Part shown: in pieces, positions 16,451 through 58,116 of the stretch | Numbering within the stretch: position 1 is the stretch's first letter | How the letters are laid out: every line of letters begins with the position of its first letter | Source of the DNA: Octopus sinensis | Lineage: Eukaryota | NCBI RefSeq assembly: GCF_006345805.1 | Contig: NC_043004.1 | Location: 45,012,001 to 45,076,000, forward strand | Direction: 5' to 3' | Length of the DNA stretch: 64,000 nt | The notes under the pieces: generated by a model | The model's database searches: none | Told to the model about the DNA's origin: nothing | Seen by the model: the letters and a program-made list of their open reading frames with translations, nothing else | Made by a program: the position numbers and the translations under genes

Positions 16451-16454
16451 ATAT

Positions 16455-16782
16455 GCGTGGCATCTTGGGCAAGTGTCTTCTACTATAGCCCCGGGCCGAC
16501 CAATGCCTTGTAAGTGGATTTGGTAGACGGAAACTGAAAGAAGCCTGTTGTATATATGTATATATATATATATGTATGTGTGTGTGTCTGTGTTTGTCCC
16601 CCAAGCATTGCTTAACAACCGATGCTGGTGTGTTTACGTCCCCGTCACTTAGCGGTTCGGCAAAAGAGACCGATAGAATAAGTACTGGGCTTACAAAGAA
16701 TAAGTCCCGAGGTCGATTTGCTCGACTAAAGGCGGTGCTCCAGCATGGCCGCAGTCAAATGACTGAAACAAGTAAAAGAGTA
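16455..16782 (+). mobile_element. SINE family A, 5'-truncated
   Basis: cttgggcaagtgtcttctactatagcc...ggaaactgaaagaagcc...gcagtcaaatgactgaaacaagtaaaagag matches 50368-50758. Confidence 0.85.
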
Positions 16783-28605: not shown

Positions 28606-31317
28606 GGATGATGATAATTATAATAACTGTGATGATGATGATGATAATTGTTGTTGTTATTATCATAGAAGAAAATAGTGGAAAACAGAGCGAGATAGTG
28701 TGAAAGGATTGGCTGAATCGAAGAACAATTAATAAATTTGGTTTAAAGAGAACAAACATTGCTAACTGTAAATAACTCTGTTGAAAATGGTGAGCAGTTC
28801 GTTTGAAGGAGGAGATGGCGACATAGCAGTAGTTGTGGTACCGTTGAGTTGAAACTGTATAGTGCTTGTACTGGTGGGTGTATGGTGTGGTGTGGTGGTA
28901 GCGCTTGTCTATGGCGGGGTTTCACTAACTTCGATGGTGCTGGTTGAGGTAGAGAGTATTGCTGGTTTCCGTGATGGAGGAGTTGTAAAGATTATTGATT
29001 AGTGTGATACTACTGACTAACAAAGTCACTGGTTTCAATTCTGCATCAGTGAAGCTCTCGCTTACGTTTGATCGATTTTTGTTTTTTATATTGTTTTCTT
29101 TTTCGTTCCTTTTTTTTTTTTTCTAAATTTTTATTTTTGTTAAAGTATTTCTGTATTAATAGTAATGTAACTGTTGGTACATTAAGCAAGTTCGTATTGG
29201 TGTTGTGCAGTCTTGAGAAAAATTATCTTTTGTGGTTTCCAAGTTGTTGCCTGTTTTAAGTTTACTTATTATTCCTTTGAAAAAGACACTAATGTGACAA
29301 ACTTCTATTTGTTTCTTTTTTTTTTCTCTCCTTCCTTTGTAATTCTGAATATATATGTCTATTGAAGAAAGAGATTGTTTTTCTCCTTTGTTTACCACAG
29401 CTATTATTATTGTTATTATTATCATCATCATTATTATTATTAATATGTAAACTCATAAAACTTCATAGTGGAGTGCAGTGGTCTTCATTCTGTTATTCAC
29501 TTGTTTTGATTGTTGGTTTGTGGCCATGCCGATGTATCATCTTCAAAGCTAAGAGCAACTCCCTGCATTAAGGAAACATTGCATTCTTGGACACCATTCT
29601 TTTAAAGTGGAATTCTGTAACATGAAATTTATGTTTCCATTGACTTTTATGTTATAATAACAAGGGAAGTAATGAGAAAATGGGTCCTCCCTATGTTATG
29701 AAAGAGTAGCTTTCCTGAAAATTTTCATATTGTGTAAAACTCCATAACACAAAAACCTATTCTCCCATTGTCCTTTTTTTTTTTTAATTGTTAACTATAA
29801 AAGAAGGGGCAGTATCCATGCCTGTTATGGAAGAGGCAGTGTCCATGCCTCTTTGAATGGTAAGATTGATGCCATTAATATTCTTCTTGAACGTATGTAA
29901 GTCAACACGTTGTTAACAATGTACTTCACTAGTCTCTGCTATTTTCAGAGCCTTTGAAGGAGCCGCACTGTTGTTGCTTGACCTGCTTGAATTAGCATAT
30001 ATGTCTCTCAAATACGCATTCCCTCCACACACATACATACACACTCTATTGTCTTAAGGGTGGACACACACCCTAATGTCTTAAGGAAAGAAGACACGTT
30101 AGGGTTAGGGTTAATCTCAGACTTTGAAAAATGAGATGGAATAATCAGGGCTTGACTATCTTTCATCGCGGATCTAATTTGATCAGGGCTGACATGGGCC
30201 TAAACAATAGCAATTTTATCATTAGTCTTCTTCAAAAGCTTCAAAATTGAGTACTCTTTTACAGAAGGTTTTGTCTAAAATTTTACAGTTCTTTACATAA
30301 ATAGGCTAAAATGTTCTCTGCTGGCATAATTGAGGTCTACCATTTAGAATTGAATCAGTGTTTATTCCTGGTTCCTTTATATTGATGAAATTGACAGAAG
30401 GCAAAATATTTTCTTACTATTTGGAAAATTACATAATACCTCTATCGTTTGTTTAATCATCTTGGAATAAGCTATGGCTTGTTATTTTGTTAGAAACATA
30501 TTGTAAATTTTTATTTGCCAGAAGTTTTCAAATCTAACATAGTCCTTCTCACTCACCTTTTCTTATTTTTCTCTATAAACAAGGACTAAAAGGCTATAAT
30601 GTAGAAATAATGTTTCTGCAAGGGAATGTAAACACTCAGAATACAGATTTAATATTTGTAAATATTAATCATTACCTCTAGTTCAGTTATATATTATGTT
30701 GTCATTGCAATGACATTCCTTAATTCTTCACATTCAATTTTGATGTCAGATAATATTTTGGCTGTGATTTTGTGTCCATATGCACACAGCTGTACCCATA
30801 TACTCTTTCTCCCCCCCACACACACACTTTTAAATATTAGAGGCATTTTAGGTTTAGGGCTTAACTCTAGTTTTGTGACATCAAGGAGATTATACATGAA
30901 TATCTCATTAGATAGGACACCTGTTCATTACAGGTATCTTATATATACTACATGTAGATCTTGATTACTGTGGCATATATATATATATTGTATTTTGGAA
31001 GTCTTCTCTTACTATCAGAACTTGTTAGAGCATTGACTGATAAAATAACAAGATTGATATGATTGATAAAATAACTGATAGGTACAGGGGCTGAGTTAAC
31101 TCTAGTTTCCAACCCCCAAAATGTATAGCCTTGTGTTAATGCTTCATAATTAAAACATATACATTCTGATTATCACTAAGGCACTGGCATGTAGATAAGA
31201 AGTTAATTTCCACAAACAAGTGGGTTCATGTCCAGCCACACTTCCCAAAAACTAATCAGCCCTGGGCCAACTAATGTCTTATTAATGAATTTGGTGGATA
31301 GAATCTGTGGAAATCTA

Positions 31318-31371
<54 letters not shown>

Positions 31372-31781
31372 CTTGAGATATGCTGAAGATTTTCTATTTT
31401 GGATATATTTGGGGTACTTAGGTCTGCTCATGACTTAGTGCTTGCTTTTTCCATGGGTATGAGTAAGTATTTCATTTATGTCTTACGTATTTATTGCTGA
31501 CGAGGAGAAAATTCTTATGAATTAACTCTGAAATTGGGACCAATACGGTAATAACGGAATTTTTTAGAAATATCTGTCGGCTAGTTTCGAGACACATATT
31601 AATAGCGATAAATTATAATGGTTATTGACAATTTGTCTATTTTTGGCATATTTGGCATTAGAATTTTTTTTCTTTTGCCCTTGTTTTATAAGTTATTTAT
31701 AAATTTAACCATTAAAGGTATTTTTTAATATGCTGGCCATTGATAAAAGTTTTTTCGAAAAATTTTATCCTATATCAGATG

Positions 31782-31782
<1 letters not shown>
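31372..31782 (+). mobile_element. Solo hammerhead-containing element (retrozyme/Penelope pLTR-like) between TA/TG microsatellites
   Basis: ~410-bp AT-rich segment bounded by (TA)n(TG)n on both sides, interrupting a degenerate SINE; contains the hammerhead at 31491-31551. Boundaries approximate. Confidence 0.6.
31491..31551 (+). ncRNA. Type I hammerhead ribozyme
   Basis: Stem I UUAUUG/CGGUAA; CUGACGA 31497-31503; stem II GGAG-AA-AAUUC(UUAU)GAAUU-AA-CUCU; GAAA 31530-31533; stem III AUUGG(GA)CCAAU; predicted cleavage after A31545 (AUA). Confidence 0.8.
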
Positions 31783-31816
<34 letters not shown>

Positions 31817-33110
31817 TTGCATGTTGATGTCCTGTAGTCTTAATTGAACAAAATATGTTTACATTCTTTAACATTATGAACAGTCACTCTGAACTTTCAA
31901 AGATTTGTGGCTTAGGAAATAAGTATCCCTTACTTGAAAAACAGATTAGTGTTGGCAACAAGCAGAACATCTGGCTGTAAAACATTGCATCAGATACATC
32001 CCCATTCAACACATGCCAGCATGGAAATACAGACATTAAACAAATTATAAATGGAATTAATTATTGTTTATGTTTCTATTGTTCCATTTCGGAGTTATGT
32101 GATCAGTTTTTGTGTTTTCTATGCATTATACTCTGCTGTATCTACTCAAGTGTTTTCAAACAGTTCATATATGTAGGCTTTTGTTGTTTATTCATTTCTT
32201 CAGTTGTTTTAATTTTATTGTTGTTTTTGCTGTTTTGGTGATGTTAGCATTATTCAAATGACATTATATTCGCAAATTCTATGACAACGAATTTGGATGT
32301 GTTGTGCAGGTAGAATTTAACATTCTACATTTATACTTTGCTCAAATGTATAACCTGAGACCTGGGGGTAAATTTGATCTCTGGTCTTGAGTGTTACTAG
32401 CTTAATACTATTATACTACACTACGTTGCTTCAAGTTTTGACATACAAAGCAAGTAGATTTAAGTGGGTCTAATATAACTTAGGAACCGATTTGGTAACT
32501 ACAGTTAAAGTGGCAGCAGAAGAAACATAAAGCTCAATATAACTTGCCTACGTCCCTTGTGTGTCAAGATTTGTCATATGATTCTAACCTCAATAGTGTG
32601 ATGTGACAAAACGTGAGAGTATTACAGTGATGGCCATTCAGCAGTGGCGCCACCATTACTGCCACCACTGTCACAGCCACTACCACCACCGTCACTGTCT
32701 TCTTTTACCTTTCCTGAAACTTGTTGGATGCATTCATGTAAAGCACTGTTTAAGATGCAGTATCATTCAAGCATGGAAATTGGTGAGGAACTGCATGTGT
32801 GCATGCATGCATGCATGCCTATATGCAAGCATGCATGCATGCATAGACCTGTATGCATTTAAGCATTTATGTGCATGTGTGTGTTTGTAGGAAGATAAAA
32901 CAAAATTGGTAACTGCGAAAATAATAATAAAAAGCAATAAAATGAACATAGAAATGGAAGAATTTCAAAAGAAATTCCATAATTCACAACTGACTAATCT
33001 CTTTCTTAGCAGGGAATATCCTCATGTGGCATTCCATAATTTCCTGTAAATTTCTATTTTCAATTTTTCCTTCTTATTCTTTGCTGTAAGATAGCTTGTG
33101 TGTGTGTGTG

Positions 33111-48676: not shown

Positions 48677-49065
48677 TCTTTTATTCTTTTACTTGTTTCA
48701 GTCATTTGACTGCAGCCCTGCTGGAGCACCGCCTTTTAGTTGAGCAAATAGACCCCAGGACTTATTCTATTGGTCTCTAGTACTTATTCTATCAGTCTCT
48801 TTTTGCTGAACTGCAAGTTCGGTTGTCAAGTGATGTGGCGGGGGGGGGGGGGCAAACAGACATGCAAACATATACACACATATACATACATATACACATA
48901 TACAACGGGCTTCTTTCAGTTTCCGTCTACCAAATCCACTCACAAGGCTATGGTCAGCCCGAGGCTATAGTAGAAGACACTTGCCCAAGGTGCCACGCAG
49001 TGGGACTGAACCCGGAACTATGTGGTTGGTAAGCAAGCTACTTACCACACAGCCACTCCTTGGCC
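48677..49065 (-). mobile_element. SINE family A, near full length
   Basis: Reverse complement of 50368-50758 including tRNA-like head and (TAAAAGAA) tail. Confidence 0.88.
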
Positions 49066-50367: not shown

Positions 50368-50758
50368 GGCGCAGGAGTGGCTGTGTGGTAAGTAGCTTGC
50401 TTACTAACCACAGCGTTCCGGGTTCAGTCCCACTGCGTAGCACCTTGGGCAAGTGTCTTCTACTATAGCCTTGAGCCGACCAAAGCCTTATGAGTGCATT
50501 TGGTAGACGGAAACTGAAAGAAGCCCGTCGTATATATGTATATATATATATGTATATATGTGTGTGTGTGTGTGTTGTGTTTGTCCCTCCAACATCGCTT
50601 GACAACCGATGCTGGTGTGTTTGCATCCCCGTAACTTAGCGATAGAATAAGTACTAGGCTTACAAAGTATAAGTCCTGGGGTCGATTTGCTCAACTAAAG
50701 GCAGTGCTCTAGCATGGCTGCAGTCAAATGACTGAAACAAGTAAAAGAATAAAAGAAT
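50368..50758 (+). mobile_element. SINE family A, full length, tRNA-derived
   Basis: Pol III A-box-like TGGCTGTGTGGT and B-box-like GGGTTCAGTCCC, CORE-like ccttgggcaagt, central TA/TG microsatellite, tail gtaaaagaataaaagaat. Confidence 0.88.
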
Positions 50759-52719
50759 ATATATATAACGTTTGGGAATTAGTAGCTAGTGGTGTATATT
50801 ATAGTACACCAGTAGAAGAAATATGGGGCATTATTATGTTGGTAATGGTATTGTATTTGTTTATGTAGTTGAACTTTTATTGAACAGACCTATAAACAAA
50901 GACATTCCAGCCATGACCATCCCACCTTTTCTTGCATAAGAGCAGCTTATGTTAAACCTTGTACACTCTGTGAAATAGCTGACATTAAGGGTATCTAGCC
51001 GTAGAAAACATACCGAAACAGACATTGAACAACCTCAGTGGTTGTTGTTGAATTGTCCAACCCATGCCAACATTGAAAATGGACATTAAACAATAATGAT
51101 GATAATGATGAAACAACCCAAGACTACATTTTCCAACATCTTTAAAAATTTTTTCTGGATAATGTGTTATTTAAGAGAGATTTTTGTTGCTAATTCTATC
51201 AGGTTGAGCAGCTATGTAGAGGTTCTCCTGTTAGCTCATAGCTGTTGTAATGGTGTTGATAGCATCTTGTTTGGCAATAAAGATGATGTTGGCAGTATAA
51301 GCAGCAATGGTAGTGGTGATAGTGCCAGTGAACTGTGGTGGGGAAGGGGGACTGTCAGAAGTAGCATAATCTTTAAAAATGTTCCACCTCTTTTCCCTTG
51401 ACATTTAACTCACCTTTCTTTGTTAATTACATTTATTTTATGTTTTCTTTCAAGTAGCTATCAAGATTGTTGCCGTTGCTGTTATTATGATGATGTTCAA
51501 GGGAAGAATTGGTGAAGTGTTGGAAGAGAATGCTTTATGGATATTTAGTTACATCCCTTTAGTGTTCTGAGTTCAAATCCCCTTTGGGGGATGAACTTTG
51601 CCTTTCATCTTTCCCTGGGTCAATGAAATAAATATTATTCAAAGACTTGTGTCAATATAATCAAGGATCTCTCTCTCTCCCAAAACTTATAGTCTTGCCC
51701 CAATGGCAGAATTGGCAGAGCACATTAACAAGTGATCTTCAGTTACCACCTGTTAATATTCTAAGTTCAATTCCTGTTGGAGTTCATTTTCATATCATTC
51801 TTCTGTGGAGGATACAATTAATAGGATGAAAGGCATAGTTGACCTCTGTGGGGACTTAGAACGTAAAGAGCCAGAACAAATACTACAAGGCATTATTTTT
51901 ATCACTCTTATTATTCTGCCAGTTCACTGTCGTTAATTGTTTGTTGATTTAGATAGAAAGCCTTTAATTTTTTAAAGGAAGAGGGTTCATTGATGTCATC
52001 AACCCCAGTACTTGACTGATGGATATTTAGAAAATTGTTAGATCACCAAATGAGATGAGGCATTTATTCCAGTTCCTTGTGTTTTGAGTTCAAATTCCAC
52101 CTTCTTTCAACAGTCTCTTTGTAGCTGGAAAACAATTCTTAGAGATTTGGTTAATAGCTCCTTATGCTAAACAGAGCAATGTGATTGGAGCAAAATCTTA
52201 ATTGCATCAAATTGCATAATTTCAAAATGTAGATTTTGTGCTAAACAAATTAAATGTTAAGACATCATCACCATTGAATTCACCATGGGTTTGATAAGTT
52301 ATCATTGTATGAGTCGACTCTTATTTGGAGTTACTGCCCTCTTAGACAAGTTGGGGATCACATTTCTCTTGTACCTTTCATTATTTGGTATGTTTCATTA
52401 TCTCTGTGACTGTTACACTTCTTAATGCCACTGACTTTACAAAGTATAGTGAGTACATTTTGTTGTGGCTCCAACCCCAAGTACAAAACAACTAATGACA
52501 TCAAGCCATTGAGAGAGTTTGTGCTTGGTCATGAAAACTTGCTAAAAAAAACAACTGAGTTTCCTTCAAATTATGATCTACTGTCTTGAAAACAGGAAGG
52601 CTATGATGAACAATATATTCCTAGAAACTCCCAGACAAGATGGTTCCAACTGGAATGCCTGCCTTTGATCGTAGCTCTAGTTAATCAGGGCTGATTTGGG
52701 GCTATATAACATGAGGACC

Positions 52720-57847: not shown

Positions 57848-58116
57848 TATATTGTATAAAGGGCATTATTACACATAAATGCCTCACACTAGGAGGGACA
57901 AAGTCATTACTACCAAAAATTATACTAATCATACCCAAATGCAGTTTTTCAAAGCAAGACATTTAAAAATGAATTATGTTCTGTATCACCGTGATTTCAC
58001 ATACAACTTGCGTCTAATGATCGTCAGCAGAACTGATTCTGAATACATCATAAATAAACCAACCTTATGTAGCGAAGACGAACAGACAACTGTTCACTCC
58101 GGCCAAGCACATGGAA
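57848..58116 (-). mobile_element. Inverted partial copy of the ~472-bp unit
   Basis: Reverse complement of the unit segment ttccatgtgcttggccgg...ccctttatacaatata; joined to the direct array through a 2-nt AA overlap. Confidence 0.92.
57978..58033 (-). ncRNA. Type I hammerhead ribozyme (inverted copy)
   Basis: Reverse complement of the 58503-58558 motif. Confidence 0.75.

What the first reader, a model, noticed from the sequence alone, without database searches (positions are those of the whole stretch)
31372..31782. Second, sequence-divergent hammerhead element with the same design
Seen: an independent type I hammerhead at 31491-31551 with different stem sequences but the same CUGACGA core, AUA site, interrupted long stem II, near-loopless stem III (UUGG-GA-CCAA) and interrupted stem I (extension CGU/ACG), in a ~410-bp segment again flanked by TA tracts. 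Different sequence with the same fold argues against chance. Inference: at least two TA-microsatellite-targeting ribozyme families in this genome; this one is a solo unit.
Basis: partly seen in the sequence, partly recalled or inferred. Interest (0 to 1): 0.75.

Follow-up and report, generated by a model that had tools for sequence, protein, structure and literature searches.

The report
Truncated hammerhead retrozyme with Penelope footprint
This is one shortened copy of a scattered, protein-free repeat that carries a predicted self-cutting RNA, and its copies end at two fixed points beside TA repeats, a signature of Penelope-type jumping genes, whose enzymes likely paste it in.

Summary
The hammerhead is real. 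Its core starts at 31497 and the predicted cut follows A31545. It was the only strict-descriptor hit in the window, with none in 60 shuffles. The segment is not a complete solo unit. It is a 5'-truncated copy (31368-31783) of a dispersed, ORF-less element with a ~462-nt circularly permuted monomer and hundreds to thousands of copies. A ~77% identical subfamily carries five compensatory pair changes. Copies end at two fixed sites 88 nt apart, usually followed by (TA)n (127 of 156). Two-armed insertions with both ends fixed have one of each in 29 of 32 cases. This is the 'tail' signature of Penelope-like elements (PMC11167929). A Hydra-clade element in this genome shows the same footprint but no sequence link. 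Folding predicts the ribozyme forms better as a dimer, so this lone copy is probably inactive. Verdict: a new family of animal non-LTR retrozyme. Cleavage, expression, circularity and the partner enzyme are untested. The scan noted this footprint before for other families in this genome.

The parts
31368..31783 (+). 5'-truncated copy of the retrozyme monomer (positions 61-469 of reference monomer L022:1441-1909); 3.7% from the family majority
31486..31556 (+). Type I hammerhead motif with interrupted stem I; this copy has C>T at 31495, turning a C-G pair into U.G
31497..31503 (+). Catalytic core CUGA-N-GA; N7 varies freely across copies (G 83, C 30, A 11, T 6 of 130)
31504..31529 (+). Interrupted stem II (G.U at its base; A-U in subfamily B)
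31533..31544 (+). Near-palindromic stem III, predicted intermolecular duplex -12.3 kcal/mol
31545..31546 (+). Predicted self-cleavage site (AUA|C)
   Evidence: prediction only
31694..31696 (+). E1, the first fixed 3' end of family copies (this copy reads through it)
31695..31781 (+). Optional 'tail' between E1 and E2 (88 nt on the majority monomer)
31781..31783 (+). E2, the second fixed 3' end; this copy ends here
31322..31371 (.). Left flank (AT)20 then (GT)n; GTGT overlaps the element's 5' junction; possible target-site duplicate of the right flank
   Evidence: duplication is inference
31782..31815 (.). Right flank (TA)7(TG)10, the inferred priming target

Best explanation
This is a 5'-truncated copy of a dispersed, non-coding repeat with a hammerhead motif (a non-LTR retrozyme), likely inserted by the borrowed enzyme of a Penelope-like retrotransposon. 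Shown: a ~462-nt head-to-tail monomer without ORF, a conserved hammerhead fold, two fixed 3' ends followed by (TA)n, variable 5' ends, and head-to-head arms. Inferred: multimeric transcripts are cut by the ribozyme, probably acting as a dimer, and may circularise. A Penelope-like protein nicks (TA)n DNA and starts reverse transcription inside the RNA at E1 or E2, reading through the intact cleavage site on a circular or uncut multimeric template. Priming from both nicked strands gives two arms, one ending at each site. The window copy started at E2 and stopped after about 415 nt. As a lone hammerhead it is probably inactive. The partner is unidentified; a Hydra-clade family is the best candidate.
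For: Family: 40 of 3671 first-look candidates scored, 88-96% identical apart from self; 84 exact 30-mer hits, reversed control 0. Monomer: longest stop-free frame 51 codons; circular fold z -5.8 against 40 shuffles. Fold: five subfamily-wide double changes keep pairing in stems I, II and III, with 97.4% of cells paired; core intact in 52 of 64 arms. Ends: 97 of 116 and 59 of 79 (sampled only by the ribozyme 30-mer) outward 3' ends are E1 or E2. TA run >=8 nt follows 127 of 156 fixed ends against 227 of 3240 background windows. One E1 plus one E2 in 29 of 32 two-armed insertions with both ends fixed (P 1e-6), and 8 of 9 in the selection-free set (P 0.018). PMC11167929 maps the optional tail to two internal RT start sites and calls it unique to Penelope-like elements. 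Nine of 59 loci exceed one monomer in one direction. No pile-up of 5' ends at the cut site: 3 of 95. A young Hydra-clade family here (717-aa ORF) ends in TA at two sites 73 nt apart, one of each in 7 of 7 two-armed insertions among 20 loci (read by eye).
Against: Within subfamily A alone covariation does not beat shuffles (29-307 of 500). The A/B signal is about five events on one branch, and one stem I extension pair broken in B was left out of the structure. The tail (88 nt) is longer than the published 30-40 nt and aligns to the Hydra tail no better than shuffles (675 of 1000). No nucleotide match was found to 20 Hydra-family, 20 Neptune-like or 32 other loci beyond co-inserted copies (output of 42 was cut). 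Units within one insertion are only slightly closer than between insertions (median 6.7% vs 8.5%). The dimer hammerhead is the predicted optimum only for the A majority, not for the window copy or for B. 12 of 35 and 11 of 20 two-armed insertions have at least one end elsewhere.
Confidence: 0.82

Rival explanations
1. The segment is a solo pseudo-LTR, the 5'-truncated end of an autonomous Penelope-like element whose coding part was not sampled.
For: Penelope-like elements carry hammerheads in their pseudo-LTRs and give the same ends. The 2026 preprint derives retrozymes from pseudo-LTRs. Penelope-like ORF fragments lie near some copies.
Against: Copies reaching monomer position 1 are preceded by the monomer's own end in 62 of 66 and 14 of 21 (three more are visible variants, four are TA tract or inversion), never by an ORF. 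Where orientation was checked, the nearby ORF fragments lie beyond the element's outer end and belong to different families. Shared 5'-adjacent sequence among 39 one-armed ends was mostly a common SINE-like repeat; three other pairwise matches were not identified.
Confidence: 0.08
2. It is mobilised by a TA-targeting LINE or spreads as DNA (satellite or Helitron-like), and the hammerhead is a passenger.
For: 5' truncation and inversion also occur in LINE-driven elements (own knowledge). In the one Penelope-like element tested in vitro, ribozyme mutants did not affect insertion.
Against: Two internal fixed ends with one-of-each polarity and head-to-tail read-through match the Penelope-like signature. 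No poly(A) or terminal repeats are seen at the ends. Compensatory changes show the fold was kept between subfamilies.
Confidence: 0.07
3. The motif is a host-domesticated regulatory ribozyme at this locus.
For: The core is intact in this copy.
Against: The core is intact in 52 of 64 arms. The copy's 3.7% divergence is typical (median 4.3%). It carries a stem-weakening C>T, and the monomer hammerhead lies 3.5 kcal/mol above the minimum-energy fold.
Confidence: 0.02

Closest known systems
Metazoan non-LTR retrozymes (coral, mussel, axolotl: PMC7229834, parts 2-3 of 6 and passages read; vertebrates: bioRxiv 10.64898/2026.07.22.740005, parts 1-3 of 5 read)
   Same: Type I hammerhead in a non-coding, low-GC (31%) monomer; monomers and tandems; strongly self-paired predicted circle; short palindromic stem III, as in the dimer-acting axolotl ribozymes.
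   Different: Monomer 462 nt (170-400 nt in PMC7229834, within 51-972 in the preprint). The copies sampled are short or partial (up to about 2 units per arm) rather than long arrays. Fixed double ends, head-to-head arms and (TA)n targeting were not described in the parts read. RNA and cleavage are not shown here.
Penelope-like elements, Hydra clade (PMC8557442, section 11 and passages) and Poseidon PAc (PMC11167929, parts 1-2 of 4)
   Same: (TA)n insertion, 5' truncation, partial tandems, inverted 5' arm, optional tail between two internal starts, hammerhead upstream of the ends.
   Different: No ORF; tail 88 nt instead of 30-40; no sequence link to any autonomous family sampled.
472-bp hammerhead array in the same window (57853-61172)
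   Same: Interrupted stems I and II, AUA site, palindromic stem III, two TA-followed ends with one of each in head-to-head arrays.
   Different: No sequence similarity; much younger (97-99% identity); long arrays; tail about 131 nt; U.U at the base of stem II.

Membership tests
Type I hammerhead ribozyme | CUGANGA and GAAA core, NUH site, three stems with stem I open | tested here: met
Type I hammerhead ribozyme | Stems supported by compensatory change | tested here: met
   (five subfamily-wide double changes); not significant within subfamily A alone
Type I hammerhead ribozyme | Match to an Rfam hammerhead model | tested here: not met
   a library match is not a defining feature of the fold
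Type I hammerhead ribozyme | Self-cleavage | not testable with these tools
   needs in vitro transcription
Metazoan non-LTR retrozyme | Short non-coding monomer, GC under 50%, one type I hammerhead per unit | tested here: met
Metazoan non-LTR retrozyme | Head-to-tail tandem organisation, multiple dispersed copies | tested here: met
   (family level; the window copy is under one monomer)
Metazoan non-LTR retrozyme | No LTR, PBS or PPT | tested here: inconclusive
   ends show no LTR arrangement; PBS and PPT were not searched
Metazoan non-LTR retrozyme | Expressed as linear and circular monomer RNA | not testable with these tools
   only contigs from runs of unrecorded kind were available
Autonomous Penelope-like element or its solo pseudo-LTR | RT plus GIY-YIG ORF contiguous with the repeat | tested here: not met
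   (140 insertions sampled, not the whole genome)
Penelope-mobilised element | Optional tail between two fixed 3' ends; partial tandem and inverted 5' arm; microsatellite target | tested here: met
Penelope-mobilised element | Sequence shared with an autonomous partner | tested here: inconclusive
   none found in 72 loci of Penelope-like families; many families unsampled

The most novel reading that the evidence does not exclude
A dimeric Hydra-clade Penelope protein binds one retrozyme RNA circle, nicks both strands of a (TA)n tract and copies the circle from both nicks at once, one subunit from E1 and the other from E2. The ribozyme cuts only as a dimer, so only multimeric transcripts yield circles while solo copies like this one stay silent. 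Retrozyme recognition would then rest on RNA shape rather than on sequence shared with the partner.
Probability: 0.3. Interest if true: 0.7.

Novelty: new member of a known kind. Interest (0 to 1): 0.42.

Why it matters
Which enzyme moves animal retrozymes is open: PMC7229834 names Penelope-like elements as a strong candidate, and the 2026 preprint argues from co-occurrence and phylogeny. This family carries the Penelope-specific tail footprint itself, with nucleotide-precise predicted start sites, so an existing in vitro assay (PMC11167929) can test it directly. The window copy on its own is an ordinary dead insertion, and the scan has noted the same footprint for several other families in this genome.

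Tried and rejected
Rfam found no hammerhead. Expression: no RNA holder listed; contigs from three runs only guessed to be RNA cover the unit, which shows neither transcription nor circularity. Empty-site test: no contig bridged the locus because the microsatellites were skipped; the joint 31280-32004 has a 23-nt side and was not used; summed depths are no copy number. A genome-wide covariance-model census was not available for this genome, so the copy number is only bounded. A ~390-bp sequence shared by many flanks was a separate abundant SINE-like repeat, also present in the window. An apparent pile-up of 5' ends at monomer 202-203 spread out over 193-203 against the majority reference, with four still at 203; not pursued. 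The E1 value of about 392 is BLAST over-extension into TA; the true end is 88 nt before E2. Cleavage-site 5' ends: 3 of 95, P 0.24 under a hazard of 0.003 per nt that is my rough estimate. Pfam did not recognise the Penelope-like fragments; clade labels rest on motifs from PMC8557442 (Hydra) or recall (Neptune-like). Partner search by nucleotide similarity and tail alignment was negative. The Hydra tail fold failed and was not repeated. Literature searches listed no paper on cephalopod retrozymes or on tails in retrozymes; supplements were not read and may hold such families.

Full report
Observation. The motif is as described: CUGACGA at 31497, stem II 31504-31529, GAA, stem III 31533-31544, AUA with the predicted cut after A31545, and stem I with a 2x2 internal loop. 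A strict descriptor found it as the single hit in the window, with 0 hits in 60 shuffled windows. Rfam has no matching model. It shares design but not sequence with the 472-bp array at 57853-61172.

The unit. The window lies in a 2.72-Gb genome. Earlier scan notes call the host an octopus; I did not test this. The segment has many dispersed relatives: 40 of 3671 candidates were scored, at 88-96% identity, and one 30-mer occurs 84 times exactly, against 0 for the reversed control. Many copies carry a further ~60 nt upstream, preceded by the element's own 3' end. The true unit is therefore a head-to-tail monomer: 469 nt in L022 and 462 nt as majority, 31% GC. The window copy covers positions 61-469. 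No frame exceeds 51 codons. Median divergence from the majority is 4.3% over 116 long arms, and 3.7% for this copy. The predicted circle folds far better than shuffles (z -5.8, 40 shuffles). Related sequence, including the E1-plus-TA end, is present in contigs under three organism labels.

The ribozyme fold. In 35 subfamily-A arms 95.7% of cells pair, but this does not beat shuffles. A second subfamily, 76-79% identical, supplies real covariation: in 56 distinct rows, five pairs in stems I, II and III change on both sides across the subfamily and keep pairing, while slid controls pair 24-43%. These are about five events, not 125, and one extension pair broken in B was left out. N7 is the one freely varying core position; part of that sample was selected on neighbouring sequence. 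The monomer hammerhead is 3.5 kcal/mol above the minimum-energy fold. For the A majority, the two-molecule optimum is exactly the dimeric hammerhead (-38.7 against -32.4 for two monomers). This does not hold for the window copy or for B. Stem III is a near-palindrome in A, B and the 472 family (duplex -11.9 to -13.9), as for the dimer-acting axolotl ribozymes.

Insertion footprint. In 81 distinct insertions (9 duplicate loci dropped of 90), 97 of 116 outward 3' ends fall at E1 or E2; the first 30 loci were selected for E2 by the query. In 59 further loci, taken from the 84 pattern hits by leaving out those already held, 59 of 79 do. E1 is nucleotide-precise, and E1 and E2 lie 88 nt apart. (TA)n follows 127 of 156 fixed ends against 7% background. 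5' ends are scattered; TA adjoins 15 of 46 and 20 of 39 outer 5' ends. Among two-armed insertions with both ends fixed, 29 of 32 have one E1 and one E2, 3 have E1 twice, and none has E2 twice; 23 further two-armed insertions have an end elsewhere. PMC8557442 describes partial tandems, inverted arms and a one-sided tail for Penelope-like elements, and (TA)n targeting for the Hydra clade. PMC11167929 shows that the tail lies between two internal RT start sites, that both strands are cut and extended, and that ribozyme cleavage is dispensable for insertion in vitro.

Template. Arms run through the intact cut site, nine of 59 loci exceed one monomer, and only 3 of 95 arms begin at the cut site. 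The template was therefore circular or an uncut multimer; these data cannot tell which. Units within an insertion are modestly closer than between insertions (6.7% vs 8.5%), which is weak support for a single template.

Partner. A young Hydra-clade family with a 717-aa ORF carrying RWK, DKT, CxCx5C, CxxC and CxH motifs ends in TA at two sites 73 nt apart, one of each in 7 of 7 two-armed cases. It has a hammerhead-like motif of similar design with C at position 4. Its tail is not detectably similar to ours. A Neptune-like family shows a roughly 35-nt tail (three loci, by eye). No autonomous locus sampled shares sequence with the monomer. The partner is therefore unproven.

Verdict. A real hammerhead motif in a truncated, probably inactive copy of a new non-LTR retrozyme family with a Penelope-type footprint. 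The family gave no look-alike by sequence in earlier scan notes, but the same reading was reached for other families in this genome. I had seen the two ends, before opening those notes; they prompted the one-of-each count and are not independent support.

Noticed in passing
window 57853-61172: 472-bp hammerhead array, head-to-head with a short inverted arm; young family (304 matches, listed ones 96-99%), two TA-followed ends about 131 nt apart, one of each per array.
   Followed up: partly
L107:187-2700 (G000:C3): Young Hydra-clade Penelope-like family with intact 717-aa ORFs; its 3' UTR holds a hammerhead-like motif with core CCGAAGA (U4 to C) in 25 of 25 motif hits and an extra U before GAAA.
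   Followed up: partly
L220, L222, L223, L227: A probable third subfamily with stem III AUCGG-A-CCGAU and AUU/AUC cleavage triplets.
   Followed up: no
L140, L167: Two 5' junctions begin inside stem II, preceded by a short fold-back of the stem II hairpin, suggesting a polymerase stall or template switch there.
   Followed up: no
L004:161-260, L020:2534, L057:1992, L106, L128, L266: Other hammerhead-like motifs of unrelated sequence in flanks, including an inverted pair with short stems in L004.
   Followed up: no
L005, L015, L056, L074, L136, L139, L142, L173: Penelope-like ORF fragments of several families lie within about 1 kb of retrozyme copies, probably nested in shared TA tracts.
   Followed up: partly
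window 16454-16782, 48677-49052, 50381-50765: Copies of an abundant ~390-bp SINE-like repeat with an internal TA run, also common in the flanks of fetched loci.
   Followed up: partly
L078 (G000:C1:50228925-50229677): Two apparently identical 450-bp subfamily-B copies, each with its TA tract, in direct repeat: a local DNA duplication or assembly artefact rather than a retrozyme tandem.
   Followed up: no
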